This document shows, piece by piece, positions 32,618 to 48,014 of a stretch of DNA of 64,000 nucleotides. The stretch's first letter is position 1. Every line of letters starts with the position of its first letter. The notes under the pieces are model-generated. The model was not told the DNA's origin. It did no database searches and saw only the letters and a program-made list of their open reading frames with translations. A program made the position numbers and the translations under genes. Origin of the DNA: Thermodesulfobacteriota bacterium (GTDB lineage: Bacteria > Desulfobacterota_D > UBA1144 > Nemesobacterales > Nemesobacteraceae). The DNA is taken from assembly GCA_965243595.1 (NCBI GenBank), contig OZ251569.1, forward strand, positions 1,994,381 through 2,058,380, read 5' to 3'.

Positions 32618-32623
32618 GGGAAG

Positions 32624-33379
32624 CTATCCTCGCGCGCGCGTCCCGCGGGCGGGAAAGCGGGTCCGGAGGAGCATCGCGCCGAAAACCGCGACCAGGACGA
32701 CGCACGCGAGCTGCGCCTGGGAAATCCCCTCGATGAAGCTCGGGGTGGTTTCCCGGAGAAGCTCGGCGGCGAACCTCTGCGTCCCGAGCGCCACGAAGCC
32801 CACCGAGGCGAGCCATCCCGCCGGGGCGGGCCTTTTCCTGATCCTCCAGAGAACGGCGAAGAGCACGGCCATGGAAAGCGTGTCGTAGAGCTGCGAGGGG
32901 TGAACGTTCACGGCCCTCTCGGAGAAGGTGAGGGCCCACGGGAGGTCGCACTCAACGCCGTAGTCGCAGCCGTTCAGGAAGCACCCTATCCTCCCCACCC
33001 CGTAGCCGGCGACCAGCGCCGGGCAGACCACGTCGAGGAGCTGCCCGTAGGCGATTTTCCTCGCCTTGGAGAGCAGGGCCAGGCCCAGGAATATTCCGAA
33101 AATCCCGCCCGCCGAGGAGTATCCCGAAACGAAGTAGCGGGGGGTGTCGGCCAGAAACTCCGCGAGCGTGGCGTTCTGGTAGAGAAAAAGAAGCTTGGCC
33201 CCGATCACGCCTCCGGCGAAGCAGGCGAGCAGAAAAGCGGGTCCGAGCTCGGGGTCCATTTTCCTCCGCCCGATCTCGCTTCGCGCCGCGGCGTAGGCCA
33301 CCAGATAGCCCGCCGCGAAAAACACCGAGTAGGACGTCAGGTAGAAATCCTCTCCGAACCTCAGAAGTACGGGATACAT
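32624..33379 (-). CDS. lgt: prolipoprotein diacylglyceryl transferase
   Basis: Multi-TM protein with the Lgt signature GRIGCFLNGCDYG and conserved Y/G-rich helices. Confidence 0.8.
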   Translation of the reverse strand: MYPVLLRFGEDFYLTSYSVFFAAGYLVAYAAARSEIGRRKMDPELGPAFLLACFAGGVIGAKLLFLYQNATLAEFLADTPRYFVSGYSSAGGIFGIFLGLALLSKARKIAYGQLLDVVCPALVAGYGVGRIGCFLNGCDYGVECDLPWALTFSERAVNVHPSQLYDTLSMAVLFAVLWRIRKRPAPAGWLASVGFVALGTQRFAAELLRETTPSFIEGISQAQLACVVLVAVFGAMLLRTRFPARGTRARG

Positions 33380-33398
33380 GGGCGCGGACCTCCCTGCC

Positions 33399-34286
33399 TC
33401 ACTCCTTGACGAGAGAGTTCACGTCTATGAACGGCACCGCGCCGCCTCCCGAGAACCTGGGAAGCGTGCCGTCCCACTTCTCCGCCACGCGCAGCTGTAT
33501 TATCTGCGGGTTGTTGCGAAGCGCCCGGGCCTCCCTCTCTATGGCGTCGGCCCTGGCCTTGGACGCCACCTCTATCTCGAACGCGCGGGCTCCGGCCGCG
33601 AGCTTTTTCTCCTCGGCGGCGGCTTCCGCCTGCGTCACCCTTCTTATCTTCTCGTTCTTGGCCTGCAGGGCTTCCTGCTCGGCCTTCACCTTGAGCTCGA
33701 TGGCCCTGTTGAACTCCTCGGAGAAGTCGAAGTCGGTTATGGCCACGTTGGCGATCCGAAGCGCGGTGGGAGATATGTCCTTTTCGGCCAGCGTGACGGA
33801 TATGAACTTGTTTATCGCCTCCTGTATCTCGACCTTCACCTCGGCCCTCTTGGTGACGAGCTGCTCGGCGGTGTACTTCGCGGTGATGGCCTTTACCGAC
33901 TCCTGTATCGCGGGCTCTATGAGCGTGAGCGACACGGTGTTTCTCTTTCCTATCTTCTGGAATATGAGCGGGGCGAGATCCCCCGTGATCGAGTACTGGA
34001 GCGTGACCTGGGTCTGCACGGTCTGCAGGTCCTTCGAGGCGGAAACGGCCTTGGCTACGGCGGCGGTGAGACGTATGTCTATCTGCTCGATCTTGTCCAT
34101 GAAGGGCTTTTTGAGATGAAACCCTTCTTGGAGGGCCTTGGGCTGCACGGCCCCGAGCGTCCTCACGACCCCGACGTGCCCGCTCTCCACTATGACGAAA
34201 ACCCCCGTGACGACAAAGAATATGAGAATGAATATCACCGGGTAGAAAATGTTCAGCCTTGGAAGCTGTCTTTTTACTCTCATCAA
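33399..34286 (-). CDS. SPFH/band-7 (prohibitin/HflC-like) membrane protein
   Basis: N-terminal TM (IFYPVIFILIFFVVTGVFVIV), SPFH core ESGHVGVVRTLGAV...QTVQTQVTLQYSI and a long Ala/Glu/Gln coiled-coil tail. Confidence 0.8.
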   Translation of the reverse strand: MMRVKRQLPRLNIFYPVIFILIFFVVTGVFVIVESGHVGVVRTLGAVQPKALQEGFHLKKPFMDKIEQIDIRLTAAVAKAVSASKDLQTVQTQVTLQYSITGDLAPLIFQKIGKRNTVSLTLIEPAIQESVKAITAKYTAEQLVTKRAEVKVEIQEAINKFISVTLAEKDISPTALRIANVAITDFDFSEEFNRAIELKVKAEQEALQAKNEKIRRVTQAEAAAEEKKLAAGARAFEIEVASKARADAIEREARALRNNPQIIQLRVAEKWDGTLPRFSGGGAVPFIDVNSLVKE

Positions 34287-34359
34287 TGTACCTCCGTTAA
34301 GTACTTCCGTTGCGGTGTATTATACTCGGATACCCCGGCAAACATAAGCGCGGCGCGGA

Positions 34360-36069
34360 TCAGGACTCCGCCGCCCTCGCGTCCCGCACGAAAAGCCGGG
34401 TTCTCCTCCTGCCTCTCCATTCCTCGGAGCGCGCGGCGAAAACCATATCCATTTTCGCGGGAAGTTCCACGACCGGGGAGTCGAACCACACGCAGCGAAG
34501 CGAAGCGCCGTCCGCCCCGGCGTCGAAGGAGACGTGGCGCTCCTTCATGACCCTCGCGTTTTCCACCTCGACCGCCCTCGCGAGAAAAAGCGGCTCGGGA
34601 TTTCCCTCTCCGAAAGGAGCGAGCCTCCCGACCTGGGAGACGAGTTCGTCCGTGAGGGAAGAGAGGTCGATTTCGCAGTCCACCTCCAGCGCGGCCTCGG
34701 GTCTCGGGCCGGTCTTGGAAAGCTCCGCGCAGAATCTTTTCCTGAAAGGGTCGACCGAGTCCCCTCCGATCGAGATTCCGGCGGCGAACCTGTGTCCCCC
34801 GAACGCGGACAGCAGTTCCGCGCACTTCGAAAGCGGCGTGAATATGTCCGCTCCCGCGAACGACCTTCCGCTCCCCCTGCCCTCTCCGTTTCCGTCGACC
34901 GATATGAGAAACACGGGTTTTTCGTAGAGCTCGCAGAGAGACGAAGCCACGATTCCCAGAACCCCCCTGTGCCACCCGGGCGAGCAGAGAACCAGCGCGG
35001 GGTCGTCCGCCGGACCCCCGTCGGCCTCGACCATCGAGACGGCCTCTGTGCGTATCCGCTCCTCGATTTCCTTTCTCTTCGAGTTTCGCCGGTCGAGACT
35101 TTCGGCGAGCGAGGCGGCCTCGGCGGGGTCTTCGCAGACCAGAAGCGAGACGGCGTCGGAGGCGGAGCCGAGTCTTCCCGCGGCGTTTATCCTGGGACCG
35201 AGGCGGAAACCGAGGTCGAAGGTCTCCACGGGGGCGCCCACGCCGCTTACCTTCATGAGGGCCGCGAGCCCCGGCCGCTTCGGGGAGGCCATCCTCAGAA
35301 GACCTTCGCGGAGCATCGTCCTGTTCACTCCCGAAAGCGGCACGCAGTCCGAAACCGTTCCGAGCGACACGAGGTCGAGGAAGTCGCCGAGGTTGGGTTC
35401 GCCGCCCCGGAAAAATCCCTCTTCCCTGAGAGTCCTTCTGAGTCCCAGAGCGAGGTTGAAGGCCACTGCGACTCCCGCGACGTTCTTGTCCGGGTAGTTG
35501 CAGCCGGGCCGCTTGGGATTGAGGACGGCCGCGGCTTCGGGAAGTTCGCCGCTGATGCTGTGGTGGTCGGTCACCACGAAATCCATCCCGAGCTCTTTCG
35601 CCTCCCTCACCTCCTCCGCGGCGGTTATGCCGCAGTCGACGGAAACCACAAGCTGCGTCCCGCCTCCGCGGAGCCCGCGGAGGGCGTCCGAATTCACGCC
35701 GTACCCCTCGGAGAACCTGTCGGGGATGTAGTACTCGACGTCGCACCCGAGCGCGGAGAGAAAGCTCCAGAGAAGTGACGTTCCCGCGACGCCGTCCACG
35801 TCGAAGTCCCCGTAGACCGCGATTTTTTCTTTTTCGTAGACGGCTTTTTTGAGCCTCTCCACGGCTTCGTCCATCCCCTTCATGAGAAACGGGGAGGGAA
35901 GGTCGGAGAGCGCCGGGGAGAGAAACGTCTCCGCCTCCTCGACCGTGCGTATTCCCCTGTTTGCCAGCAGCAGGGCCGCGATGGGAAGAATCCCGAGCTT
36001 TTTCGAGATTTTCTCGGCGGGACCCTTGGCCGTCTTCGCCACCTTCCATTTTCTTGCCGGCTTGTTCAC
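34360..36069 (-). CDS. recJ: single-stranded-DNA-specific exonuclease RecJ
   Basis: DHH motifs IAVYGDFDVDGVAGTSLL, TDHH and DCGITA, plus a DHHA1 C-terminal region, in 569 aa. Confidence 0.85.
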   Translation of the reverse strand: MNKPARKWKVAKTAKGPAEKISKKLGILPIAALLLANRGIRTVEEAETFLSPALSDLPSPFLMKGMDEAVERLKKAVYEKEKIAVYGDFDVDGVAGTSLLWSFLSALGCDVEYYIPDRFSEGYGVNSDALRGLRGGGTQLVVSVDCGITAAEEVREAKELGMDFVVTDHHSISGELPEAAAVLNPKRPGCNYPDKNVAGVAVAFNLALGLRRTLREEGFFRGGEPNLGDFLDLVSLGTVSDCVPLSGVNRTMLREGLLRMASPKRPGLAALMKVSGVGAPVETFDLGFRLGPRINAAGRLGSASDAVSLLVCEDPAEAASLAESLDRRNSKRKEIEERIRTEAVSMVEADGGPADDPALVLCSPGWHRGVLGIVASSLCELYEKPVFLISVDGNGEGRGSGRSFAGADIFTPLSKCAELLSAFGGHRFAAGISIGGDSVDPFRKRFCAELSKTGPRPEAALEVDCEIDLSSLTDELVSQVGRLAPFGEGNPEPLFLARAVEVENARVMKERHVSFDAGADGASLRCVWFDSPVVELPAKMDMVFAARSEEWRGRRRTRLFVRDARAAES

Positions 36070-36145
36070 CTGGAAGTCTCCGGAAGTTTCCTGCGCGGGT
36101 CAGAATCCGCCGGCCGCACGGAGCGCAACATCTCCGGCCGCGCCC

Positions 36146-37546
36146 TCATGCTTCCGCACGAAGAGTCTCCGGGGCCACAAGTCCGTTTCCCCTGAAACGC
36201 CGGGAGCGCTCTTTTCCCGATTTTCCTTTCGCGGCTTCGGAAACATTCAGGGTTCCGAAGGGCCGTCTCACCGAAGAAAGGCTTATTCCGTTCTTGATGG
36301 AGTTGAGAACTCCGGCGGCCTCAAGATAGTTCTCCACCCTGACGAACTGCCCCGCGGCCCAGGGAAGCTCGCCCAGGTCGTTTCTCATCAGGTTTCTGTT
36401 TTCCCTCACCGCCACAACCTTGATCCCCTGCTCGAGGGCCGCCAGCGTGGGAAGACCCAGGCAGCCGTCCGGAACGACCAGGCAGGAGACGTCCTTCGCG
36501 GAAATTATGCCGTCGCAATTAAACACTTCGGGATCCGCAACGATCCCGGGACTTCCGTGAAGCCCCTTGAGAACGCAGTGAAAGAAGGTGTTGGAGACGG
36601 CTTCCGCCGACATTCTCGCTTCGACGACTCCGGGGTCCATGTTGGAGATTTCGGGGGATTCGAACATCGGAGAATGGGCGGAAGGAACGTCGAAGCCGTA
36701 GGAAACGGCGTGGGTGAGCATGGCCTCGACCCCTCCCCATGGGTTGACCATCTCTCCCCCGCTGCGGAAGTAGTCAAGATGATAGCTCTCGGGGACCTTT
36801 ATCACGGAGGAGATGGCGACCGCGTCGTAGCTTCCCTCGCGCTCTCTCAGAACGGAGAACAGGTTGTCGACGCCTTCGATGACGCCGACCGCCCTGCTTG
36901 AAGACGAATACTCGGACCTCATGGTTACGGAAGGACTCATCCTCACTATGCCGGAACACTCCATTCCCAGAGTCGCCCGGGCGGCGTTGACGGAATTGAC
37001 GGCGGCGTTCTCAAAGACTTCGTGTTCGTTCTCGTCTATGACGGCCAGAACCCGGTTGGACCTTACGGGCCGCAGTCCCGCCGAGCCCATCATCAGGCGG
37101 CAGATGGCGCTGCCTTCGACGTAAAGACTGTTCTCTGGCATTTCGTTTATGTCCGAGGCGTTGAACACGTTCGGGTGGGTTATGAGATTGTCGCAGCACG
37201 AAGACAGCAGCCTGGCCACGGGGGTGGCGTCTCCGGCGTGGCCGCCTATTTCGCAGCCGATTCCCGTGGGAACCAGGAAAACGACGTTGAACTCCCTGGT
37301 GCTCTCAAACTTGCGCTTCTCGAACCTGAACAGCGCCGCGGGGTCTTCGAGACCGTTTATTCCCGCCCCGCCCAGAACGCCGACTTCGCACCTGTAATCC
37401 GGGCCGGAGCTGTCGGTGACGGCGATTCTCACCGGCAGCAGACCTTCTCCGCCCAGACGGGAGGACACCTGTCTTTCAATGTACGACAGCGGGCTCCCGT
37501 CGCCCCGAATCTTGGGAAAAGACATTTCTTTTTCCGTGAATCTCAT
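36146..37546 (-). CDS. hypothetical protein (466 aa), co-oriented and adjacent (3-nt gap) with the nspC-like decarboxylase
   Basis: Clean ORF with no family recognised (…NVVFLVPTGIGCEIGGHAGDATPVARLLSSCCDNLITHPNVFNASD…). The start may be Met8 (MSFPKI). Confidence 0.5.
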   Translation of the reverse strand: MRFTEKEMSFPKIRGDGSPLSYIERQVSSRLGGEGLLPVRIAVTDSSGPDYRCEVGVLGGAGINGLEDPAALFRFEKRKFESTREFNVVFLVPTGIGCEIGGHAGDATPVARLLSSCCDNLITHPNVFNASDINEMPENSLYVEGSAICRLMMGSAGLRPVRSNRVLAVIDENEHEVFENAAVNSVNAARATLGMECSGIVRMSPSVTMRSEYSSSSRAVGVIEGVDNLFSVLREREGSYDAVAISSVIKVPESYHLDYFRSGGEMVNPWGGVEAMLTHAVSYGFDVPSAHSPMFESPEISNMDPGVVEARMSAEAVSNTFFHCVLKGLHGSPGIVADPEVFNCDGIISAKDVSCLVVPDGCLGLPTLAALEQGIKVVAVRENRNLMRNDLGELPWAAGQFVRVENYLEAAGVLNSIKNGISLSSVRRPFGTLNVSEAAKGKSGKERSRRFRGNGLVAPETLRAEA

Positions 37547-37549
37547 GAT

Positions 37550-38707
37550 TTAACCCCCGTAACGGTTTGCGTATTCTTCAAAGGTGAAGCTTTTCACTTT
37601 TTTCATTTCTCCGCCGTCCTCGACGCAGTAGACGTCGGGAAGATTGATGCCGTTGAACGTGTGCGCCTTGACCAGGGAGTAGCCCCCGACCCTTTCGAAA
37701 AGCACCCTGGAACCCACCCGCAGTTCTTCTCCGAAGCGGTACGCGCCGAAAACATCCCCGGCCAGGCAGCTGCTACCCGCCAGTATGTACTCGTTTTCAC
37801 AAGACGGGTCGTCTCCGAAAACATCGGGCCTGTACTGGTATTCGAAAACTTCGGGGAGATGGTTCACGGTAGTGTCCAGAACGGCTATGTCCTTGCCGTC
37901 CCTTCTGAAAAGGTCGACTACGGAAGAAACCAGGCATCCGCTGTCTCTGACCAGGAAAGCGCCGGGTTCGATCATTATCTCTTCGAAACCGTAATCGTCG
38001 TTGAGTTCGTCCGCGAGCTCGTGGAAAAGAGACAGGTTTTCGGATTCGTCGAAGAAGTAGCCGCCGCCCAGATTGATCCACCTGAACTTCCGGAGTTCGC
38101 CGGAAAGCTCGATCTTCAGTCTGGAGATGGTTTCCGCAAGCTGGGAAAAATCCTTGCTCTCGCAGTTCGTGTGCAGATGTATTCCCTCTATCTTTTCCGA
38201 GAAATCCGGGTCGGAGGAAACTTTGTCCCTGACCTGGTCCGCCGGAACGCCGAGCTTTGAGAACTCGCGGCACGGATTGTACCTGCGGTCCTCGACGAAA
38301 GAAACCCGGGGATTGACTCTTATTCCGTAGCTCTGCTCCCCGAGCCTGGATTCGAAACGGGAAAACTGCTCCAGAGAATTAAACGTCAGGTACTCGACCG
38401 CGCCTGAAATGTCCTCCCATTGCCCGTCCCTGATTCCGGGACTGACGAAGTGAATCTTCTTTCCGCCGCCGCAGGTCTTCTCCGCCAGCCTGGCTTCGAA
38501 AAGAGAGCTTGCGGAAAAACCGTCCAGAGAACCCATCTCCTCGAGAATCCTGCACAGGGGCAACGCCTTTAGCGAATAGAGAACCTTGCAGTTCGACCTG
38601 TCCCTTATCAGGCGAAGGGTCTCCAGTCTTTTTCTTATTTCGCCCAGATTGTAGACGAAGGCGGGCGTTGCGGAAGGCTCGCGATTCAGCGGGAAGGAGC
38701 TTTCCAT
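37550..38707 (-). CDS. nspC: PLP-dependent decarboxylase of the Orn/DAP/Arg decarboxylase fold, carboxynorspermidine-decarboxylase-like
   Basis: 385 aa; PLP-Lys region KVLYSLKALP, GIHLHTNCES (compare HxHT.CE of CANSDC), GGGYFFDE and EPGAFLV. Length and motif order fit NspC better than LysA. The start ATG overlaps the stop of the upstream HNH gene (TGATG). Confidence 0.55.
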   Translation of the reverse strand: MESSFPLNREPSATPAFVYNLGEIRKRLETLRLIRDRSNCKVLYSLKALPLCRILEEMGSLDGFSASSLFEARLAEKTCGGGKKIHFVSPGIRDGQWEDISGAVEYLTFNSLEQFSRFESRLGEQSYGIRVNPRVSFVEDRRYNPCREFSKLGVPADQVRDKVSSDPDFSEKIEGIHLHTNCESKDFSQLAETISRLKIELSGELRKFRWINLGGGYFFDESENLSLFHELADELNDDYGFEEIMIEPGAFLVRDSGCLVSSVVDLFRRDGKDIAVLDTTVNHLPEVFEYQYRPDVFGDDPSCENEYILAGSSCLAGDVFGAYRFGEELRVGSRVLFERVGGYSLVKAHTFNGINLPDVYCVEDGGEMKKVKSFTFEEYANRYGG

Positions 38708-39474
38708 CAGATAAGTCCTTTCTTTCTGAAATAGAATCTGGCGAACCCCGAAAATTCGCTGTGCCGGGAAATGTATTTGCTCAGACGCTTGCTAGCCCTG
38801 CCCTTGTTGTCTTTCAGACCTGCCCAAAGCTCATATTCCTCAAAATTTTCAAGTTTGCTCGCTCTTTCCTGCATCATATATCTATTGTTTATTCCCGTCA
38901 GTTTGCTGACTGTTTTTTGCCCGCGCTCGCATTTTCCAACGGCCTTCACCATCAATTTCTTGGATAGACCGTCTTCTGTACACTCCTCTATATCTTCTTC
39001 AAAAAGATCGTATTCTATAAATTCCTCTGGATTTTCTTCAATAGGGTTGATCAGAATTGGTTTTTCTTTCTCAAGGTCACAATCTTCCGGGTCAAGTCTC
39101 TCTGACCCGGGTTCCAGTGGAAATTTGGCCCCCTTTTTTATGTTGCATGTCTCGCAAGCCAAAAGCAGGTTCTCCCAACTGTAAGCAAGCCACCAGTAAC
39201 CCGGATGGTCTTCGACTTCTTCAACCTTCGTTTTGGGGCGAAAATGCTCTACGTGAGCTTCTCCCATGGGTAATCTCCTCTCGCAGTAACAGCATTTCCC
39301 ATGTTGAGGTTTGTAAAGCAACTCTTTGAACTCCCGCCACAATTTTCCGTTTTTAAAATCATCGGACTTCAATTTTCCACAGCTTGCCAATTCTCTAATT
39401 CTCTGGAGCTCTTTTTTTCTCCTCTCGGCTAAACCGGGATCTTCCGGGATTTCCCTGCACTCAATCTTTATCAT
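38707..39474 (-). CDS. ptuB: HNH endonuclease, Septu PtuB-like (copy 1)
   Basis: 255 aa with a His-Me finger: GKCCYCERRL...AHVEHFRPK...WENLLLACETCNIKKG (CxxC...H-EH...N...CxxC...N). Low GC (about 43%). It sits 3 nt downstream of a P-loop ATPase gene on the same strand. Confidence 0.7.
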   Translation of the reverse strand: MIKIECREIPEDPGLAERRKKELQRIRELASCGKLKSDDFKNGKLWREFKELLYKPQHGKCCYCERRLPMGEAHVEHFRPKTKVEEVEDHPGYWWLAYSWENLLLACETCNIKKGAKFPLEPGSERLDPEDCDLEKEKPILINPIEENPEEFIEYDLFEEDIEECTEDGLSKKLMVKAVGKCERGQKTVSKLTGINNRYMMQERASKLENFEEYELWAGLKDNKGRASKRLSKYISRHSEFSGFARFYFRKKGLI

Positions 39475-39477
39475 AAG

Positions 39478-40764
39478 TTAGGATTCGTCCGTTTGATTCT
39501 TAAGCAGTTCGATTAATTCGGCTCTTTGTATTTTTTCCTGTGCGTTATCCCACATAGGCAGGCCTTTCAGCTCTTCTTCAATTTCCTGGAGAAGTTCCTC
39601 TTCTTCAGGATCTCTTTCGTCCTTTTCCACAAGATATATTTCCGCGTACTCTTCCAGCCTCTTTTCTATGTAGTCGCTCCTTGTATCCGTAAGGCCAAAA
39701 ATCCTTGAGGTTAGTATCTGATCAGACCTGTAGCCTTTAAATTCCTTTCTGATGTCAAATTCCTCGACCTCGCTATGGCCGTTTACATAAGCAACCTTGA
39801 ATAGACGGGATTCGCATTCCACTAGGTCGGTCAGCCCCAAAGCGCATATGGGAGTATGCGTGCTGCATATGAACTGCATTTTCGGAAACTGGTCCGAAAG
39901 AGTTTTTATTATTTTTCTTTGCCACCTCGGGTGAAGATGCTGCTCCAGTTCATCAATGATGAAAATCCCCGAAAGATCCTTCAAGCTGAAATTCTCAAAC
40001 TTATGCACACGATTCCAACCCAGAAAATCCATAACAACAGAGGTCAGCGACTTGTATCCGTCGCTCATTGTGCCGAAGGCACCCTCTCCCCGACTAGTCT
40101 TGAAGTACAGCCCCGTTATTTTCAAAAAAATTTCATCTTCTTCTTCCATCATTAAGATTTTTTTCAAGGCATCCTGAAGGTTTTCCCATTCCTCGCCGGG
40201 GTGGCCTTGAATTCTCCTCGCACACAATTCCGCTTTCTGCAAAGGCCGTTCATATTTAAAAAGCGTGTACAAAGCGTCGACCAAGGTATATTCCTCATGA
40301 GACTCCGTCGTACCCGTCACAGACCTGCCCGCACCGTAAGCCACCGCGAAGATATCCTTTCTTTTCTTGAAATTTTTTATTCTACTCTTACCATTCTTCC
40401 CGTCACATTCACCAACGCAATCACCTTGGAAAACATCCTGATTTGAAATAGATTCTTTGTCGCCCTCCCGTTTTATGCGAGTTCTGATTGTATATTTCTT
40501 GCCGTTGGAATCCCCTAAACAAACCTCAATAGAGCCTTCCTTCTTCTTCCATCTCAAAAATCCATCCAGCTCCGACAGAAGAGAGGCCGCCCAGTCGTCG
40601 TCGCAAAGCCCCATGGCAAGACTTCTGAGAATCGTCGTTTTCCCCTGTCCGTTATCCCCCACAAGAAGAGACCAGTTTCTAGCACCGCCGTCAACAGACT
40701 CGAACGGGATTTCAACTTCCTTGAAACACTTAATGTTTACAAGGCGCAACTTAAGTATTTTCAT
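39478..40764 (-). CDS. ptuA: ABC/RecF-like AAA ATPase (AAA_15/AAA_21-type), Septu PtuA-like (copy 1)
   Basis: Walker A LLVGDNGQGKTTILRSL, Walker B/Q IIDELEQHLHP and H-loop ICSTHTP in a 428-aa protein with a long helical insert. The two-gene ATPase+HNH arrangement matches the Septu (PtuAB) architecture. Confidence 0.7.
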   Translation of the reverse strand: MKILKLRLVNIKCFKEVEIPFESVDGGARNWSLLVGDNGQGKTTILRSLAMGLCDDDWAASLLSELDGFLRWKKKEGSIEVCLGDSNGKKYTIRTRIKREGDKESISNQDVFQGDCVGECDGKNGKSRIKNFKKRKDIFAVAYGAGRSVTGTTESHEEYTLVDALYTLFKYERPLQKAELCARRIQGHPGEEWENLQDALKKILMMEEEDEIFLKITGLYFKTSRGEGAFGTMSDGYKSLTSVVMDFLGWNRVHKFENFSLKDLSGIFIIDELEQHLHPRWQRKIIKTLSDQFPKMQFICSTHTPICALGLTDLVECESRLFKVAYVNGHSEVEEFDIRKEFKGYRSDQILTSRIFGLTDTRSDYIEKRLEEYAEIYLVEKDERDPEEEELLQEIEEELKGLPMWDNAQEKIQRAELIELLKNQTDES

Positions 40765-41250
40765 TATTCGTCAGCCCTCCACCGGCATCACGATCTTTCC
40801 GAAAAACTGAAAAACCAGCAACTCTACTGAAAACCCGCGATGAGAAAAGATAGCAACAACCTCTAGTAACTCCTCGGGAAATTATACAGGAAAAACTCCC
40901 GAGGGCGTAATTCCCCCGCTAGCTTGTCGTCTGGATGTTTCGTCACACAGAAAACAGCATATATGTCGCATCAGGAAGAGAGCTTACCAACAATGATCAC
41001 TTGACTTCCACCTCCAGTCACATGCTTGCTCCACGCAATATTCAAGTCCACGCACTTGCCCTTAATGAAACGAATTTCCGCCTTTCACGTCAGCTTTACA
41101 AGGATGCGGAGTAGAAGTACATTCGCAAGAAACAACGCAACAGAATCTCTACAAGGTCAAAGAATTGAATACGACAATCTCACCCAAATTGTAAACAAAC
41201 GCAGGCAAGACCATAGTTCTCCATCTTAACGAGAAAAAATTTGCCAATTC

Positions 41251-41991
41251 TTAAAAACATCCCATCTTCTTGAAGTAGAATCTCGCGAATCCTGAAAACG
41301 GACTGCAGCTGGAAGTGTATTCATGCAGGCACCTCTCCGCCTCTGCCCTTAATTCATCGCCTTCGCCATTACTCAAGGACAACGCGCACATCCTATAATA
41401 TTTGATTTTCTTTGCCCTCTTGTTCATCACCTGCATGTCGTTTATTCCCGTGAGTTCATCGACCGTTCTTTTGCCTCGCTCGCATTTTCCGACGGCTTTG
41501 CCCATGAACCGCGGATTCTCCGTATCGTAATCTACAAACATCTCAGGGTCTTCTTCCAACGGATTTATCAGAATCGGTTTTTCTTCGTCAAGGGCGGAAT
41601 TTTCCTCGCAAGCTCTTTTCGACCCGGGTTTCAGAGGAAATTTCGATTTCTTGTATTCCTGATTGCATGTCTTGCAGGCTATTAGCAGGTTTTCCCAGCT
41701 ATAGGCAAGCCACCAGTAGCCTGTATGGTCTTCGGCTCCTTCAACTTCGGCCTTGGGTCGAAAATGCTCCACATCGCTTACCCTCTTTTCATCTTGTTTC
41801 CTCTCGCAGTAACAGCACTTGCCGTGTTGGGACCTGTGAAGGAATTTCTTGACCTTACGGTCGGACCATAAGGTCTCAAAGCGGTAAGGCTTCCCCGATT
41901 TTACCGCTTTTCTGATTTTTTGGAGCTCCTTTTCCCTCCTCCCGTCCAGTTTGTTGCCTTTCGGAGGTTTCCCGCGCTCAATCTTTATCAT
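41251..41991 (-). CDS. ptuB: HNH endonuclease, Septu PtuB-like (copy 2, diverged paralogue)
   Basis: 246 aa; GKCCYCERKQ...VEHFRPK...WENLLIACKTCNQEYK, same N- and C-terminal framework (MIKIE..., ...FSGFARFYFKK) as copy 1, but by eye only about 55-60% identical. Confidence 0.7.
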   Translation of the reverse strand: MIKIERGKPPKGNKLDGRREKELQKIRKAVKSGKPYRFETLWSDRKVKKFLHRSQHGKCCYCERKQDEKRVSDVEHFRPKAEVEGAEDHTGYWWLAYSWENLLIACKTCNQEYKKSKFPLKPGSKRACEENSALDEEKPILINPLEEDPEMFVDYDTENPRFMGKAVGKCERGKRTVDELTGINDMQVMNKRAKKIKYYRMCALSLSNGEGDELRAEAERCLHEYTSSCSPFSGFARFYFKKMGCF

Positions 41992-43262
41992 TGATAAGAC
42001 TTCTTCTCCTGCCTCTCAAACAACTCCATCAGCCTGTCCGTCCGTCTTTTGTCTTCTTCGTCATCCCACATAGGCAAGTATTTCAACTCCTCTTCAATTT
42101 CCATGAGACGTCGCTTTTCTTTGGAGTTTCTTTTGTCCTCTTCCTTAAGATATATTTTTCTGTATTCCTTCAGCTTGTCTTGAGCAGAAACGCTTCTCGT
42201 GCTTTCAAGATCAAAGATGTCCGAGGTCAATATCTGGTCGGTTCTGTAACACTTAAATTCCTCTCTCAGGTCAAATTCCTCAACCTCGCTATGATTGTTC
42301 ACATGAGCAACCTTGAAGAGACGGGATTCGCATTCCAGATCGCTGAGGCCCAAGGCGCAGATGGGAGTATGCGTACTGCATATGAACTGCACCTTCGGGA
42401 ACTGGTCCGAAAGGATTTTTACTATCTCTCTTTGCCACTTGGGGTGAAGATGCTGCTCAAGCTCGTCAATAAGGAGAATTCCCGAGATATTCCTCGAACT
42501 GAAATCCTCAAGCCTACGCATCAGATTCCAACACAGGAAGTCCACGACGACAGAGGTCAAGGACTTATATCCGTCGCTCATTGTATCGAAAACACCTTCC
42601 CCGCGACGAGTCTTGAAATACAACCCCGTTATTTCCAGAGAAATTTCATCTTCTTCTTCCATCATCAAGATTTTTTTCAGGGCATTCCACAGGTTTTCCC
42701 GTTCTTCCTCAGAATGGAATTCTATTCTTCTCGCGCCCAGTTCCGCATTCTGCAAGGACTGTTCATATCTAAAAAGAGTGTACAAAGCGTCAACCAGTCT
42801 GTACTCCTCGTAAGATTCCGTGCCCGACACGGACCTGCCCGCACCGTAAGCCACCGCAAAAATCCTGTTCCTCCTAAAATCTTTTGCTTCTTTATGCTTA
42901 CCCTTTTTATTGACGCAATCACCTTGAAAAACATCCTGAGAGATGGATTCGTTGTTGCCCTCCAGTTTTATGCGGGTTCGGACTGTATATTTTTTACCGT
43001 CGGAATCCGCCAGACAGACTTCAATAGACCCCTTGCTCGCACCCCATCCCAAAAATTCTCCGTGCAATTCCGACCGAAGAGCCGCCGCCCAGTCGTCGTC
43101 GCAAAGCCCCATGGCCAAGCTCCTGAGAATCGTCGTTTTCCCCTGTCCGTTATCCCCGACAAAGAGAGACCAGTTTCTGGCACTCCCGTCGACAGACTCA
43201 AATGGAATTTCAATGTCCTTGAAACACTTAATGTTCTCGAGTCTCAGTTTCAGTATCTTCAT
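41988..43262 (-). CDS. ptuA: ABC/RecF-like AAA ATPase, Septu PtuA-like (copy 2)
   Basis: 424 aa. The N-terminal about 70 aa are nearly identical to copy 1 (MKILKLRLENIKCFKDIEIPFESVDGSARNWSLFVGDNGQGKTTILRSLAMGLCDDDWAA). Walker B LIDELEQHLHP and H-loop CSTHTP are present, and the stop overlaps the HNH start (ATGA). Confidence 0.7.
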   Translation of the reverse strand: MKILKLRLENIKCFKDIEIPFESVDGSARNWSLFVGDNGQGKTTILRSLAMGLCDDDWAAALRSELHGEFLGWGASKGSIEVCLADSDGKKYTVRTRIKLEGNNESISQDVFQGDCVNKKGKHKEAKDFRRNRIFAVAYGAGRSVSGTESYEEYRLVDALYTLFRYEQSLQNAELGARRIEFHSEEERENLWNALKKILMMEEEDEISLEITGLYFKTRRGEGVFDTMSDGYKSLTSVVVDFLCWNLMRRLEDFSSRNISGILLIDELEQHLHPKWQREIVKILSDQFPKVQFICSTHTPICALGLSDLECESRLFKVAHVNNHSEVEEFDLREEFKCYRTDQILTSDIFDLESTRSVSAQDKLKEYRKIYLKEEDKRNSKEKRRLMEIEEELKYLPMWDDEEDKRRTDRLMELFERQEKKSYQ

Positions 43263-43582
43263 TTCTCAATCCCCCGCGGTGCCACAACTCACCGCGAACC
43301 GAAAAAATTCCGCATTAATTTTAATCTGGCTACAGAAGTAAAATCGTAAAAATCCCACCCGAGCTAAAGTATACAGAAGCGAAAGAACCGGGCAAGACGC
43401 CGCGGCGGAGACTGCGGATTGAATCGGAAATTTCGGGCACGGTAGCCGGAAATCCATATCGCTGTGGCAATATCGCGCATCAATCGCTTCTCACCGACCG
43501 CCTGTTTGTAGCACGTTGGTTGTCCGGTTTTCGTTCTACCCCCGGCGACCCCGAGGGGCTGCAAACGGAACAAACCGCCGCT

Positions 43583-44155
43583 TCACTCCCCGCGGCCGAC
43601 CTCGAAATCCAGTATCTCGATTTCATACCTGATGCCGAGAATTTTGTTCCCGGACAGGTAAAAAGAGTAGAAGGGAACGGCGTTTCCGGGCTGCACGTCG
43701 AGGTTGGCCGACGCCGGCGCGTCCGCGAAAACCGCCAGGTCGTCCCCGCCCTTCCTTCCGAGTTTTCCTAGCAGGTAATCGACGTCGGCGTTTTTCAGGT
43801 CCCTCGCAGACAGCGTGTTGCCGCAGTAGAGCTCCTGGACTCCCAGACCGCGCCCCGAGACGTGAAAGACGCTTTTCAGCTTCACGTAGCTTACCGGGGC
43901 GTCTCCCTGGTTCATGACCTCGCCTCGCACCAGGAAAAGGTAGCCCTTCTTGGTGCTTATCCACCGGGACTCGGTGTTTCTCACGACAAGCTCGCGGGAA
44001 ACCTCGTCGCTTTTCCAAAACGGCGCGTCCGTGAAAAAGCCGAACCTGAGAAGAACGAAACCGGCCGCGACGACCGCCGCCGCCAAAAACAGCTTGGAGG
44101 GAAACCTTCTCCTTTTCTTCCTGGCTATGCCGTAGAATATCTTTTCCGCGTCCAT
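43583..44155 (-). CDS. hypothetical membrane-anchored protein (N-terminal TM helix plus about 150-aa extracytoplasmic domain; DUF3426-like?)
   Basis: KKRRRFPSKLFLAAAVVAAGFVLLRFGFF forms a signal-anchor followed by a beta-rich domain; the family assignment is tentative and from memory. Confidence 0.45.
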   Translation of the reverse strand: MDAEKIFYGIARKKRRRFPSKLFLAAAVVAAGFVLLRFGFFTDAPFWKSDEVSRELVVRNTESRWISTKKGYLFLVRGEVMNQGDAPVSYVKLKSVFHVSGRGLGVQELYCGNTLSARDLKNADVDYLLGKLGRKGGDDLAVFADAPASANLDVQPGNAVPFYSFYLSGNKILGIRYEIEILDFEVGRGE

Positions 44156-44318
44156 GAAATTTCACCGAAACCCGAAGAAGTCGTGAAAACCGGGATTGTC
44201 CGCCCGCAAACGCGACATCCCCGTTTTCGGACAAGCCGGCCGGTCGGCTGAATTTTACAACGGCGGGCAGTTCCTGTAAATTTATCCAGACGGCGAGAAC
44301 GCCCGAAGGAAAAGTATA

Positions 44319-45155
44319 TTGAAAAGACGGCGGGAAATCATTTCGCGAAGCGTTGTAACGGTTTTTTTCTTCCTCGCGGCCGTGGCGACGGTTCCGGCGT
44401 CCTCGGGCGACGCGCTCGCCCAGAGCGGCCGTTTTTACGTCGGTGCCTCGGCCGATGTCGACTACCTCAGGGTCAAGTACGGAAAAACCGTCGCGAACGC
44501 CGACGTGCCCGCCCTTCCCGAAAGAGGCGAGACGTACCGCGACGGCGACTCCGCGGACAAGGCGGCGTTCGGCGGGGGTCTGCTCGCGGGCTACAGGCTC
44601 GGTTTCGGCGAAGGAGGCGGCTTTTACGTGAGCGCGGAGGTCGACGGGCAGGTCCACGCCCGCTCCGCCAGCGGAGCTTTCGCGGGAAAAGGAGAGTCGC
44701 AGGGACGCAACCAGCTCGGGGAGAGCTGGCCCGACGCGTGGAATCTCAAGAGAAGATACAGCTTCGGGGCGACCGTCAAGCTGGGCGGAGCCGCGGAGTT
44801 TCTGGGTTCCGGTTCCAGCGTCTACGTTCTAGGCGGCGCTCGGCGGCTCAAAACCAGGCTCAGTGTGAACTACTTCGGATGTCTCAATCCTCCGGACACG
44901 AGAGTTCCGTGCCGGACCGATCAGTTCGAGGCGGGCAGCTACTCCCGCGACCGCTCCTTCTGGGGATGGACCGCGGGAGCCGGAATGGAGAAGATGCTCG
45001 CCGACAGGGTCGGAATACGCGGCGAAATTCGCCACACCAGGTACGAGAAGCTGAAACGGACTCCCTTCAGCCTCGTTGACGGAAACCTAAACGTCCGCAC
45101 TTCGCTCGAAGCCAACGAAACCGACTTTTCGCTGAGCGCGGTCGTCTATTTCTAG
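44319..45155 (+). CDS. outer-membrane beta-barrel protein (OMP_b-brl/OmpW-like), copy 1
   Basis: Signal peptide VVTVFFFLAAVATVPASSGDALAQ; alternating amphipathic strands (FYVGASADVDYLRV, GFYVSAEVDG, YSFGATVKLG, VYVLGGARRL, WGWTAGAGME, GIRGEIRHTRYE); terminal beta-signal SAVVYF. Confidence 0.7.
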   Translation: MKRRREIISRSVVTVFFFLAAVATVPASSGDALAQSGRFYVGASADVDYLRVKYGKTVANADVPALPERGETYRDGDSADKAAFGGGLLAGYRLGFGEGGGFYVSAEVDGQVHARSASGAFAGKGESQGRNQLGESWPDAWNLKRRYSFGATVKLGGAAEFLGSGSSVYVLGGARRLKTRLSVNYFGCLNPPDTRVPCRTDQFEAGSYSRDRSFWGWTAGAGMEKMLADRVGIRGEIRHTRYEKLKRTPFSLVDGNLNVRTSLEANETDFSLSAVVYF

Positions 45156-45360
45156 GCCGCTTCGAAAAAACCCGCCGGACGGTCTTTCCCGTCATCTTTC
45201 CCGCGCGGGTCTTTTCGCCTCCGTCTCCTCTGGCCCCGCGTTGAGGGAGACGGAACATTCCGGACAAAAGACGCGGCGATGCCAGACCGCCGAAGTTTAC
45301 AGAGTCCTGCGCGCCGTGTAGATTTGCACGACAGCCGAAAATGCCGGGAGGACGAAAAGC

Positions 45361-46188: not shown

Positions 46189-46325
46189 GCCGTTCGCAAG
46201 ACCCTTCCCGCAGTTCTTGCAAGGCATCCTTAAATGAAGACGAATAGTTGCGTTCCGCCTGGCGCTTTAGCGAACTGAAAACCTGAATCAGCCCGACAAT
46301 CCGTTGTGAAATCTGTCTTTCTCAA

Positions 46326-46870: not shown

Positions 46871-47091
46871 TGAGACCTCGCTTTTTGTATTGCGCAGTAT
46901 GGCAATAGCATACAATATCGAATTTTACAAAACAAGATAAGAAACTAAGGACGAAAAACAGCGATTACGGTCGCCAATCAGCACCGCAAAAAACAGTCTA
47001 CATACAAAGATTCCAAGGACACGAACAGGTACATTGGTCCGAGGATTCCAAGCGGTTTGCGCTGTTATAGCTCACTGAAGTTCCAACAAGT

Positions 47092-47811: not shown

Positions 47812-48014
47812 TGATGGAGACCCCCTGACTAATCTCTGTTCTGACCGGAAGATTATTCACTATAGGCGATTCGCATTCAATCTCCGGAAGGCGAAGCAAG
47901 ACCGGGGAAAACCCCGCGGGCGGAAGCCGCCCCGGACGCCCGCGTCAACAACGGATTGAAAAAAACATCCGCTTGTGTCATAATAGCAGGCACTGCTTTT
48001 TTCAGGAGTGGAGA

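What the first reader, a model, noticed from the sequence alone, without database searches (positions are those of the whole stretch)
38690..38725. The defence island is translationally coupled to a housekeeping decarboxylase operon (TGATG junction)
On the minus strand the stop codon of HNH copy 1 and the start codon of the nspC-like PLP decarboxylase share a base (ctgATGgaaagc, read as TGA and ATG). The low-GC Septu genes are therefore fused seamlessly into the high-GC transcription unit continuing through the 466-aa unknown protein and recJ. Either the island inserted precisely at an operon 5' end and captured its expression signals, or the downstream genes now depend on read-through from the island promoter.
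Basis: seen in the sequence. Interest (0 to 1): 0.5.

Follow-up and report, generated by a model that had tools for sequence, protein, structure and literature searches.

The report
Septu fused to amine-synthesis operon
The one-base stop/start overlap is real but ordinary in itself; it is the internal joint of a four-gene cluster (Septu ATPase, Septu HNH nuclease, an amine-forming decarboxylase and a DUF3326 protein) that recurs in at least six bacterial phyla, which points to an apparently undescribed tie between a phage-defence system and polyamine-type metabolism.

Summary
Observation confirmed. On the minus strand, the ptuB-1 stop (TGA, 38709-38707) and the only possible start of the nspC-like decarboxylase (ATG, 38707-38705) share base 38707. 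An AGGA sits 8 nt upstream, inside ptuB. GC3 falls from 0.70 to 0.48 across the joint.

The "island landed on a housekeeping operon" reading is not supported. The same ptuA-ptuB-decarboxylase-DUF3326 block, with stop and start overlapping or at most about 60 nt apart, occurs in every close relative found (TGATG conserved). It also occurs in Dadabacteria at 72% identity (TAATG) and in MAGs of five further phyla, once between integrase genes. Starting from PtuA instead, 12 of 16 assessable loci of this PtuA clade carry a decarboxylase and/or DUF3326 after ptuB, against 1 of 35 others. In many of them a pyruvoyl AdoMetDC-like decarboxylase replaces the PLP enzyme. PtuA and DUF3326 distances co-vary (Mantel r 0.85-0.90).

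Within the window's clade the Septu half is a swapped cassette. Synonymous divergence is about tenfold higher than in the flanks, and its edges lie inside ptuA (about codon 10) and ptuB (last ~25 codons). A 24-codon nspC relic follows ptuB-2.

Co-transcription, translational coupling and any functional link are inferred, not shown.

The parts
38705..38709 (-). TGATG joint: ptuB-1 stop TGA (38709-38707) and nspC-like start ATG (38707-38705) share base 38707
   Evidence: conserved in L001-L006 and L170, TAATG in L007/L009
38716..38721 (-). Shine-Dalgarno-like AAAGGA inside the last codons of ptuB-1, 8 nt before the nspC ATG
   Evidence: GAAAGGA / GAAGGA kept in all Dadabacteria-clade junctions. 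Function inferred.
38707..38785 (-). Conserved 3' end of ptuB-1 (last ~25 codons, ...SEFSGFARFYFRKKGLI*). Right-hand homology arm: nucleotide identity to relatives jumps from ~0.5-0.65 to ~0.9 here, not at the gene border
   Evidence: (90-nt windows)
38707..39474 (-). ptuB-1, Septu HNH nuclease (255 aa)
   Evidence: PADLOC PtuB E 3e-42, Pfam HNH
39478..40764 (-). ptuA-1, Septu ABC/SMC-type ATPase (428 aa)
   Evidence: PADLOC PtuA E 2.5e-60, Pfam AAA_15/AAA_21/SMC_N
40765..41250 (-). 486-nt spacer between the two Septu copies. Apart from the relic below it has no recognisable homology. It contains a terminator-like hairpin (40918-40900) followed by TATAAT.
   Evidence: same spacer in L170
41176..41247 (-). 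Relic of an nspC 5' end, 24 codons in frame and 3 nt after the ptuB-2 stop: TTG GCA AAT ... CCT GCG TTT GTT TAC AAT TTG GGT GAG ATT (PAFVYNLGEI is 10/10 identical to nspC residues 15-24)
   Evidence: tblastn E 2e-4; longest exact run 10 aa against at most 6 in 300 shuffles
41251..41991 (-). ptuB-2, second Septu HNH nuclease (246 aa)
   Evidence: PADLOC PtuB E 7e-54; frameshifted in relative L170
41988..43262 (-). ptuA-2, second Septu ATPase (424 aa), overlaps ptuB-2 by 4 nt
   Evidence: PADLOC PtuA E 1.6e-62; dN/dS 0.15 against L170
43230..43400 (-). Left homology arm: conserved promoter-like TTGCCC-16-TATACT (43395-43368), ~105-nt leader and the first ~10 codons of ptuA-2. At least 0.9 identical to L001 and conserved in L003/L004 although their upstream genes differ.
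   Evidence: Promoter function inferred. No Rfam match, and the fold is not better than shuffles.
37550..38707 (-). nspC-like fold-III PLP decarboxylase (385 aa)
   Evidence: Pfam Orn_Arg_deC_N + Orn_DAP_Arg_deC; TIGR01047 273.7 bits, below the 409 cut-off; best PDB relatives are carboxynorspermidine decarboxylases, E 5e-65
36146..37546 (-). DUF3326 protein (466 aa), 3 nt after the decarboxylase stop. The conserved partner in all versions of the module.
34360..36069 (-). recJ, 76 nt downstream. Possibly co-transcribed here but not a conserved member of the cluster.
   Evidence: TIGR00644 543.9 bits; other genes intervene in L003/L004, and different neighbours in L007-L009

Best explanation
The TGATG is the internal joint of an old, widely distributed four-gene operon: ptuA - ptuB - decarboxylase - DUF3326. 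It is not the scar of an island insertion.

Shown:
(i) The four genes are packed at 3, -1 and 3 nt in the window.
(ii) The same order and near-zero spacing recur in every close relative, in Dadabacteria at 72% identity, and in MAGs labelled Bdellovibrionales, Nitrospirota, Verrucomicrobiota, Syntrophales, Planctomycetota and Gammaproteobacteria. In one case the block lies between integrase and relaxase genes.
(iii) The PtuA clade concerned is specifically followed by a decarboxylase and/or DUF3326. The decarboxylase can be either the PLP nspC-like enzyme or a pyruvoyl AdoMetDC-like enzyme.
(iv) PtuA and DUF3326 distances co-vary.
(v) Within the window's clade the Septu genes are divergent alleles sitting between conserved arms. 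The left arm is the promoter/leader plus about 10 codons of ptuA. The right arm is the last ~25 codons of ptuB plus nspC.

Inferred:
- The Septu cassette is replaced by homologous recombination in those arms. This brings in lower-GC alleles and leaves the joint untouched.
- A failed or unequal exchange left two cassettes and a 24-codon nspC relic after ptuB-2.
- One promoter upstream of ptuA (plus perhaps one in the 486-nt spacer) transcribes all four genes.
- nspC translation starts from the AGGA buried in ptuB's last codons, helped by termination-reinitiation at TGATG.
- The decarboxylase makes a diamine or decarboxylates a carboxy-amine, and DUF3326 carries out the partner step to a polyamine-like product, by analogy with PavA/PavB.

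Most speculative step (about 0.4-0.45): the product is functionally tied to PtuAB, as a regulator or cofactor of the ATPase-nuclease or as a metabolite whose disturbance by phage is sensed, rather than merely being co-expressed.
For: Joint, unique start and SD.
Septu identity: and 91 for distant loci.
Conserved junction in relatives.
Same block in other phyla. On a mobile element.
Reverse test: 12 of 16 against 1 of 35, Fisher p 1.3e-7.
AdoMet_dc replacing nspC.
Co-divergence: Mantel r 0.85-0.90, p 2e-4.
Cassette exchange: between window and L001, dS is 2.5 for ptuA and 1.45 for ptuB, against 0.26 for nspC, 0.16 for DUF3326 and 0.18 for hyp190. Identity steps lie at ~38785 and ~43230. The window's PtuA is as close to PtuA of L009 (66-68%) as to that of L001 (62-65%), although nspC is 72% against 95%.
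Relic.
Conserved promoter-like leader.
Amine-synthesis role of the pair: pavettamine preprint 10.64898/2026.06.12.731819; Gln-synt and GSP_synth neighbours in Septu-free loci; PDB relatives.
Defence-island company: AbiE, KwaB.
No insertion hallmarks.
Against: - The nspC-DUF3326 pair exists without PtuAB in 32 of 41 assessable species-level loci, mostly Chloroflexota, and there it sits in polyamine-metabolism contexts.
- PtuAB of the same clade exists without the pair in 4 of 16 loci.
- ptuA is broken by an IS in L008 and L011 and frameshifted in L007, while the two downstream genes stay intact. The pair therefore neither needs PtuA nor, apparently, uninterrupted transcription from the ptuA promoter.
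- No gene fusions link the two halves.
- Weak promoter-like sites occur inside ptuB-1 (38901-38873 and 39041-39012).
- No transcript or protein data exist.
- All comparison genomes are MAGs or metagenome contigs.
- The PtuA-anchored test is partly circular, because the queries came from linked loci.
Confidence: 0.7

Rival explanations
1. First reader's model. A foreign, low-GC Septu island inserted precisely at the 5' end of a resident housekeeping nspC operon in this lineage, creating the TGATG by chance or by selection and capturing or replacing the operon's expression signals.
For: Sharp GC3 drop at the joint. Septu genes are typical mobile defence cargo.
Against: The same joint and order occur in all close relatives and at 72% identity, and the same block occurs in six phyla. 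The divergence boundary lies inside ptuB, not at the joint. There is no tRNA, integrase or direct repeats. The ptuB-1 C-terminus is full length and matches the family motif, so nothing was truncated or extended at an insertion point. PtuA and DUF3326 co-diverge.
Confidence: 0.05
2. Pure hitch-hiking. The decarboxylase-DUF3326 pair is an autonomous polyamine operon. An ancestral Septu pair became wedged between its promoter and its first gene, and the block has since travelled together vertically and by HGT. It is retained because a clean deletion would have to preserve promoter and RBS. There is no biochemical interplay.
For: The pair occurs alone in many genomes beside polyamine enzymes. It stays intact when ptuA is destroyed. 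PADLOC has no model for either protein. There are no fusions. Co-divergence is equally expected for passive linkage.
Against: The linkage survives non-orthologous replacement of the decarboxylase, PLP enzyme against pyruvoyl AdoMetDC-like. It survives deep divergence (PtuA 31-37%, DUF3326 46-55% identity) across six phyla and transfer on a mobile element. It also survives repeated exchange of the Septu cassette itself within the window's clade, always by another Septu allele and never by loss or by another system. Twelve of 16 loci of the clade keep it.
Confidence: 0.4
3. No expression dependence. nspC-DUF3326 are transcribed mainly from a promoter inside ptuB or in the 486-nt spacer, and are translated from their own SD. 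The overlap is then only compact gene packing.
For: Promoter-like sites at 38901-38873 and 39041-39012, and TATAAT at about 40886 after a terminator-like hairpin. IS-interrupted ptuA with intact downstream genes in L008 and L011. A good AGGA at optimal spacing could act alone.
Against: The candidate internal promoters lie in the hypervariable part of ptuB and are weak (9 of 12 matches). Ten such sites were found in the 10-kb region, against 4.7 +/- 1.7 in shuffles. The only conserved non-coding element is upstream of ptuA.
Confidence: 0.3
4. The site upstream of nspC is simply a recombination hotspot (defence-island landing pad) that happens to hold Septu here.
For: Alleles differ strongly between strains with conserved arms. 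Neighbouring defence genes vary: AbiE, Kiwa.
Against: Every occupant found at this position, in every lineage, is Septu of one clade. A generic hotspot would hold varied systems.
Confidence: 0.1

Closest known systems
Septu (PtuA ATPase + PtuB HNH nuclease; Doron et al. 2018 class, PADLOC septu type I)
   Same: Both window copies and the distant linked copies match PADLOC PtuA/PtuB models over their full length (E 1e-45 to 1e-67 and 1e-26 to 1e-56). Walker A/B and the HNH motif are intact. ptuA is directly followed by ptuB.
   Different: Canonical Septu is a two-gene system. Here two further genes (decarboxylase, DUF3326) are welded on with -1 and 3 nt spacing and co-diverge with PtuA. No paper in the searched library mentions such a form, and PADLOC has no model for the extra genes.
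Type I-A retrons (Ec78/Eco7): PtuAB co-opted as effector of another module
   Same: A precedent that the PtuAB pair is a portable ATPase-nuclease unit wired to an unrelated partner module that controls it (abstracts of PMC12819146 and PMC12673091). The window proteins hit NCBIfam retron-type PtuA/PtuB weakly.
   Different: No reverse transcriptase or ncRNA here. The partner module is enzymatic (amine synthesis) and lies downstream, not upstream. The NCBIfam scores are far below the cut-offs (115 against 500; 54.5 against 150).
PavA/PavB of the pavettamine cluster (bioRxiv 10.64898/2026.06.12.731819)
   Same: A decarboxylase of the Orn/DAP/Arg (nspC-like) type next to a DUF3326 protein. Both are required for a triamine intermediate. 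The Ca. Paraburkholderia schumanniana locus L022 matches the window proteins at 45% and 54% identity.
   Different: The window decarboxylase is a stand-alone 385-aa protein without the Rieske and racemase-like domains. There is no JmjC PavC. The product is unknown, and there is no Septu at the Paraburkholderia loci.
Carboxynorspermidine dehydrogenase/decarboxylase (CANSDH/CANSDC, NspC) pathway
   Same: The closest solved structures and the best NCBIfam model are CANSDC/NspC. Fold-III PLP enzyme with invariant K47.
   Different: Scores below the equivalog cut-off (273.7 against 409). The partner is DUF3326, not a saccharopine-dehydrogenase-like CANSDH. In sister loci it is replaced by a pyruvoyl AdoMetDC-like enzyme.
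Ordinary translationally coupled operon genes with 1- or 4-nt stop/start overlaps
   Same: TGATG overlap with an SD inside the upstream gene, same strand. A second example (trkA/trkH, TAGTG) lies in the same window.
   Different: The overlap joins a fast-swapping defence cassette to slowly evolving metabolic genes, and the swap boundary lies just upstream of it.

Membership tests
Septu (PtuA/PtuB) | ABC/SMC-like ATPase with Walker A/B matching PtuA profiles | tested here: met
   PADLOC PtuA E 2.5e-60 (copy 1) and 1.6e-62 (copy 2); Pfam AAA_15/AAA_21/SMC_N; invariant GxxGxGK and DE in alignment A2
Septu (PtuA/PtuB) | HNH nuclease PtuB encoded immediately downstream of ptuA | tested here: met
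   PADLOC PtuB E 3e-42 and 7e-54; Pfam HNH; 3-nt gap in copy 1 and 4-nt overlap in copy 2
Septu (PtuA/PtuB) | Self-contained two-gene system | tested here: not met
   Two further genes are attached at -1 and 3 nt and recur with this PtuA clade
Septu (PtuA/PtuB) | Protects against phage | not testable with these tools
   Needs phage challenge of cells expressing the two-gene and four-gene constructs
Carboxynorspermidine decarboxylase NspC (TIGR01047 equivalog) | Score at or above the curated equivalog cut-off | tested here: not met
   273.7 bits against cut-off 409.05
Carboxynorspermidine decarboxylase NspC (TIGR01047 equivalog) | Fold-III PLP decarboxylase domains and PLP lysine | tested here: met
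   PF02784 + PF00278; K47 invariant; best PDB matches are CANSDC, E 5e-65
Carboxynorspermidine decarboxylase NspC (TIGR01047 equivalog) | Paired with carboxynorspermidine dehydrogenase | tested here: not met
   The adjacent gene is DUF3326 in the window and in 50+ related loci. The rest of the genome was not examined.
PavA/PavB-type decarboxylase + DUF3326 amine-synthesis pair | DUF3326 (PF11805) protein adjacent to an Orn/DAP/Arg-type decarboxylase | tested here: met
   PF11805 306.8 bits, 3 nt after the decarboxylase; homologous to the Ca. P. schumanniana locus L022
PavA/PavB-type decarboxylase + DUF3326 amine-synthesis pair | Rieske domain on the decarboxylase and JmjC partner (PavC) | tested here: not met
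   The 385-aa protein has only the two decarboxylase domains, and no cupin gene is nearby
PavA/PavB-type decarboxylase + DUF3326 amine-synthesis pair | Produces a polyamine | not testable with these tools
   Needs metabolite analysis. Context in Septu-free loci (Gln-synt, GSP_synth neighbours) is only suggestive.
Translationally coupled gene pair | Stop and start overlap or abut on the same strand, with no alternative start | tested here: met
Translationally coupled gene pair | SD for the downstream gene inside the upstream ORF at 5-10 nt | tested here: met
   AGGA at 38719-38716, 8 nt from the ATG; conserved in the clade
Translationally coupled gene pair | Downstream translation depends on upstream translation | not testable with these tools
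   Needs reporter fusions with and without a premature stop in ptuB
Integrated genomic island | Integrase, tRNA/att site or flanking direct repeats; absent from close relatives | tested here: not met
   No tRNA in 30000-50000. The only repeats are the two Septu copies. The cassette is present in all relatives found.

The most novel reading that the evidence does not exclude
This is a previously undescribed four-gene Septu subtype. In it the PtuAB ATPase-nuclease is functionally wired to a dedicated amine-synthesis pair: a PLP or pyruvoyl decarboxylase plus DUF3326, an enzyme family with no solved relative. The polyamine-like product would restrain, license or localise the nuclease, or its depletion or sequestration during phage DNA replication and packaging would be the infection signal. 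Phages that carry their own AdoMetDC-DUF3326 pair (seen on IMG/VR contigs) would then be countering or exploiting exactly this axis.
Probability: 0.3. Interest if true: 0.8.

Novelty: new variant of a known kind. Interest (0 to 1): 0.6.

Why it matters
Septu is one of the commonest anti-phage systems, and its trigger is still debated (ATP level, retron msDNA, tRNA-Tyr cleavage). A clade of Septu that has kept a small-molecule biosynthetic pair welded to its 3' end across phyla offers a concrete, testable candidate for a metabolite input or cofactor. It also gives DUF3326, an uncharacterised family also present in cyanobacteria, plants and phages, a genetic handle. Independently of function, the locus is a clean natural example of how a defence cassette can be exchanged by homologous recombination with breakpoints inside its own first and last codons. 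The promoter, the RBS and the coupled start of the downstream genes are never disturbed. This also explains a sharp GC step without any insertion event.

Tried and rejected
- Exact look-ups of the window's own nspC and DUF3326 proteins found no contig, so the source genome could not be named. The nearest named relatives are Ca. Dadabacteria.
- A profile HMM of nspC against the 486-nt spacer gave only a weak hit. Only the 24-codon relic is credible, not a longer pseudogene. A second tblastn match in the spacer (P0064, residues 31-76, E 6e-4) was not reproduced by the HMM and was dropped.
- The donor of the relic could not be assigned: about 58% nucleotide identity to all clades.
- Simple tandem duplication was rejected. 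Homology between the two copies stops exactly at the ptuA start codons, and the spacer does not match the conserved leader.
- Rfam found nothing in 36000-44400, and the leader does not fold better than shuffles (z -0.88).
- No PtuA/PtuB fusions with the decarboxylase or DUF3326 were found among longer homologues.
- DUF3326 is absent from PLSDB plasmids and INPHARED phages.
- One literature search was wasted because 'septu' matched 'septum'. Later whole-word searches found no paper linking Septu to polyamines, nspC or DUF3326.
- My greedy ORF caller mis-calls genes in high-GC loci, so counts of overlaps in the window are only rough.
Full report
**1. The observation**

Read on the minus strand, 38725-38690 is ...AGA AAG AAA GGA CTT ATC TGA overlapping ATG GAA AGC TCC.... 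The 255-aa ORF 38707..39474 ends with TGA at 38709-38707. The 385-aa ORF 37550..38707 begins with ATG at 38707-38705. The two share base 38707.

The start is not in doubt. In the decarboxylase frame there is no other ATG, GTG or TTG between the upstream stop (TAG, 38794) and codon 14. An alignment of 23 homologues shows T14, P15, F17 and the PLP lysine K47 to be invariant. The N-terminus ME(S/D/G)SF(P/L)L is shared down to 72% identity.

An AGGA lies 8 nt before the ATG, encoded by the Lys-Lys-Gly codons of the upstream gene.

The composition step is real. GC is about 0.44 upstream and 0.55-0.59 downstream. GC3 is 0.48/0.51 in ptuB-1/ptuA-1 and already 0.70 in the first 60 codons of the decarboxylase.

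A one-base overlap is not remarkable by itself. trkA and trkH in the same window overlap in the same way (TAGTG at 31286), and ptuA-2/ptuB-2 overlap by four bases.

**2. The genes**

All genes below are on the minus strand.

| Gene | Coordinates | Identification |
|---|---|---|
| ptuA-2 | 41988-43262 | PADLOC PtuA, E 1.6e-62 |
| ptuB-2 | 41251-41991 | PADLOC PtuB, E 7e-54 |
| spacer | 40765-41250 | 486 nt |
| ptuA-1 | 39478-40764 | PADLOC PtuA, E 2.5e-60 |
| ptuB-1 | 38707-39474 | PADLOC PtuB, E 3e-42; Pfam HNH |
| decarboxylase | 37550-38707 | fold-III PLP decarboxylase |
| DUF3326 | 36146-37546 | PF11805, 306.8 bits |
| recJ | 34360-36069 | 76 nt after DUF3326 |

Beyond recJ lie a Band-7 gene, lgt, trkA and trkH.

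The decarboxylase is nearest to carboxynorspermidine decarboxylases: TIGR01047 at 273.7 bits, and PDB CANSDC at E 5e-65. It falls below the equivalog cut-off of 409.

Spacing within the block is 3 nt (ptuA-1 to ptuB-1), -1 nt (ptuB-1 to decarboxylase) and 3 nt (decarboxylase to DUF3326).

**3. Close relatives**

Homologues of the decarboxylase at 90-95% identity lie on metagenome contigs L001-L006. Every one has PtuA-PtuB-decarboxylase-DUF3326, with the PtuB end coordinate equal to the decarboxylase start. The sequence ...GAAAGGA(C/T)TTAT(C/T)TGATGGAAAG... is conserved.

- L001 is syntenic with the window on both sides but has one Septu pair.
- L170, 93% identical over 16 kb, has the same two-copy layout and the same spacer. 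Its ptuB-2 is frameshifted.
- Other genes sit between DUF3326 and recJ in L003 (helicase, DprA) and L004 (DprA). recJ is therefore not a fixed member of the unit.

**4. The Septu half is a swapped cassette**

Among these relatives the decarboxylase and DUF3326 are 88-95% identical in protein. PtuA is only 61-84% identical and PtuB 54-81%.

Synonymous divergence between the window and L001:

| Gene | dS |
|---|---|
| nspC-like decarboxylase | 0.26 |
| DUF3326 | 0.16 |
| upstream 190-aa gene (hyp190) | 0.18 |
| ptuA | 2.5 |
| ptuB | 1.45 |

A tenfold excess at silent sites cannot come from positive selection in place. The alleles have separate histories.

The window's PtuA copies are as similar to the PtuA of Dadabacteria L009 (66-68%) as to that of L001 (62-65%), although the decarboxylase is 72% against 95%.

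Sliding-window identity places the right edge of the variable segment about 60-80 nt before the decarboxylase ATG, at roughly 38785 and inside the last ~25 codons of ptuB. The left edge is at roughly 43230, about ten codons into ptuA-2.

Upstream of that, some 135 nt are conserved in L001, L003 and L004 even where the upstream genes differ. This stretch includes an invariant TTGCCC-16-TATACT (43395-43368).

I infer that the cassette is exchanged by homologous recombination within these arms. That accounts for the lower GC of the Septu genes and for the survival of the joint. There is no tRNA, integrase or flanking direct repeat.

Between the window and L170 the cassettes are orthologous. Both ptuA copies are under purifying selection, with dN/dS 0.12-0.15.

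**5. A relic after ptuB-2**

Three nucleotides after the ptuB-2 stop, the "spacer" reads TTG GCA AAT TTT TTC TCG TTA AGA TGG AGA ACT ATG GVC... in frame with ...CCT GCG TTT GTT TAC AAT TTG GGT GAG ATT (41247-41176).

- This aligns codon for codon with residues 1-24 of the decarboxylase: 12 of 24 identical, with PAFVYNLGEI matching 10 of 10.
- All differences within that decapeptide are at synonymous positions.
- The longest exact run in 300 shuffles of the spacer was 6 residues, usually 4.
- The rest of the spacer is unrecognisable and is not related to the conserved leader.

ptuB-2 therefore also once abutted an nspC start. The two-copy state looks like an imperfect exchange rather than a simple tandem duplication.

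**6. The same block far beyond this clade**

A scan of one genome per species with the decarboxylase alignment and tblastn of the flanks gave 41 assessable loci with decarboxylase + DUF3326.

- Nine have PtuA-PtuB directly upstream. Three are Dadabacteria/Thermodesulfobacteriota. One each is labelled Bdellovibrionales, Nitrospirota, Verrucomicrobiota, Syntrophales, Planctomycetota and Ca. Oxydemutatoraceae (Gammaproteobacteria). That makes six phyla.
- Of the 32 without PtuAB, 25 are Chloroflexota.
- Three further loci reached through homologues at 52-60% identity all carry the four genes. L167 has the block between relaxase/integrase genes on one side and an integrase on the other.

PADLOC confirms PtuA/PtuB in these distant loci.

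The distance from the PtuB stop to the next start:

| Spacing | Loci |
|---|---|
| -4 nt | L167 |
| -1 nt (TGATG or TAATG) | window clade, L007, L009, L168 |
| 0 nt | L008, L019 |
| 5-65 nt | the remaining loci |

**7. The reverse test**

A metagenome scan was run with a PtuA alignment.

- Of the 16 assessable loci whose PtuA scores at least 150 bits against linked-clade PtuAs, 12 have a decarboxylase and/or DUF3326 just after ptuB.
- Of the 35 lower-scoring loci, 1 does (Fisher p 1.3e-7).

The test is partly circular, because the queries came from linked loci. It does show that the link belongs to one PtuA clade.

In eight of these loci the gene between ptuB and DUF3326 is not the PLP enzyme. 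It is a 121-158-aa AdoMet_dc (PF02675) pyruvoyl decarboxylase.

Pairwise distances of PtuA and DUF3326 over 17 linked loci correlate with r 0.90, or 0.85 without the close clade (p 2e-4).

**8. What the downstream pair does**

DUF3326 has no PDB relative by sequence. A confident AF2 model (pLDDT 80, pTM 0.82) finds only generic Rossmann-like matches.

The one functional report in the searched library is the pavettamine preprint. There a decarboxylase-domain protein (PavA) and a DUF3326 protein (PavB) are both required for a triamine intermediate. The Ca. Paraburkholderia schumanniana locus is among my hits (L022).

In Septu-free loci the pair neighbours glutamine-synthetase-like and glutathionylspermidine-synthase-like genes.

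AdoMetDC homologues are known to have become ornithine/arginine decarboxylases (PMC10407285).

I therefore infer a two-step synthesis of a polyamine-like amine. The product is unknown.

**9. Expression**

Shown:
- There is no intergenic space before nspC.
- An SD lies inside ptuB.
- A promoter-like leader is conserved only upstream of ptuA.
- No terminator-like site lies between ptuB-1 and recJ on the coding strand.

Inferred: one transcript, with coupled or SD-driven initiation at the joint.

Against strict dependence:
- Weak promoter-like sites lie inside ptuB-1.
- A hairpin followed by TATAAT lies in the spacer.
- ptuA is split by an IS in L008 (rve type) and L011 (DDE_3 type) and frameshifted in L007, while the two downstream genes remain intact.

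**10. Interpretation and comparison with what is known**

The insertion scenario and the "housekeeping" label do not hold.

The best-supported description is a conserved ptuA-ptuB-decarboxylase-DUF3326 operon whose Septu half turns over by recombination. Whether the amine pair is functionally coupled to PtuAB or merely linked is open. I put the functional link at about 0.4-0.45.

For a functional link:
- The linkage survives replacement of the decarboxylase by an unrelated enzyme.
- It survives replacement of the Septu alleles.
- It survives inter-phylum transfer.
- The block keeps defence-island company: AbiE, Kiwa KwaB, Vsr, integrases.

Against a functional link:
- Each half exists alone.
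- The pair outlives ptuA.
- There are no fusions.

PADLOC has no model for the two extra proteins. Searches of the paper library found nothing connecting Septu with polyamines, nspC or DUF3326. The nearest precedent for PtuAB being attached to another module is the type I-A retron.

**11. Verdict**

- Observation: confirmed.
- Interpretation: partly supported.
- Novelty: a new variant of a known kind, a Septu clade with an attached amine-synthesis pair.
- Interest: 0.6. The joint itself is ordinary. The conserved four-gene architecture, its recombination anatomy and the phage-borne copies of the same pair are not.

Noticed in passing
window 41176-41247 (-): A 24-codon in-frame relic of an nspC 5' end lies 3 nt after the ptuB-2 stop (PAFVYNLGEI identical to the live gene, start codon now TTG). 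It is also present, slightly drifted (PTFVY), in relative L170.
   Followed up: yes
window 43263-43400 (-); L001 7845-7980; L003/L004 ~7790-7990: About 135 nt upstream of ptuA are conserved across relatives whose upstream genes differ. The stretch includes an invariant TTGCCC-16-TATACT and a CGCGG...CCGCG hairpin just before the RBS. No Rfam match, and the fold is not better than shuffles.
   Followed up: partly
window 31284-31288 (-): trkA stop TAG and trkH start GTG share one base (TAGTG). This is a second one-base overlap in the same window, in a bona fide housekeeping operon.
   Followed up: yes
L008 5549-6517; L011 5599-6621; L007 ~6860: ptuA is interrupted by an IS in two unrelated genomes (rve-type transposase in a Dadabacteria-like chromosome, DDE_3-type in a Bdellovibrionales MAG) and frameshifted in a third. 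The decarboxylase and DUF3326 stay intact in all three.
   Followed up: partly
L093, L099, L101, L104, L111, L112, L129, L089 (between ptuB and DUF3326): A small AdoMet_dc (PF02675) pyruvoyl decarboxylase takes the place of the PLP nspC-like enzyme. L089 carries two DUF3326 genes.
   Followed up: partly
L172-L176 (IMG/VR contigs, e.g. L173 5622-7302, L174 5570-7287): AdoMetDC-like + DUF3326 pairs without PtuAB sit on predicted viral contigs, including ones of 173 and 241 kb. In L173 a major head protein gene (phrog_10, E 1e-47) lies about 600 nt downstream. PHROGs v4 has no family for DUF3326, and INPHARED phages gave no hit.
   Followed up: partly
L167 1-10617: The four-gene block lies between relaxase/HTH_17/integrase genes on one side and HTH_17/integrase genes on the other. 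It is apparently cargo of an integrative mobile element.
   Followed up: no
L007 10592-12081 (and L008, L009 equivalents): Directly after DUF3326 come a ~175-197-aa protein with no Pfam hit and a KwaB-like protein (Kiwa defence system). sucC lies upstream of ptuA.
   Followed up: no
L170 4701-5443: In the other two-copy strain, ptuB-2 carries a 2-nt insertion and has lost a conserved histidine of the HNH motif (VEHFRPK to VELFQPK). ptuA-2 is still under purifying selection there.
   Followed up: partly
window 40881-40918 (-): In the inter-copy spacer a GC-rich hairpin with a T-run is followed immediately by TATAAT. This may be a terminator for copy 2 and a promoter for copy 1 and the downstream genes.
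   Followed up: no
L012-L075 (Chloroflexota loci), e.g. L017 6564-7922, L073 6796-7956: Where the decarboxylase-DUF3326 pair lacks Septu, it is often followed or preceded by glutamine-synthetase-like or glutathionylspermidine-synthase-like genes. In some Dehalococcoidia the gene order is inverted (DUF3326 first).
   Followed up: partly
[not shown]
   Followed up: partly
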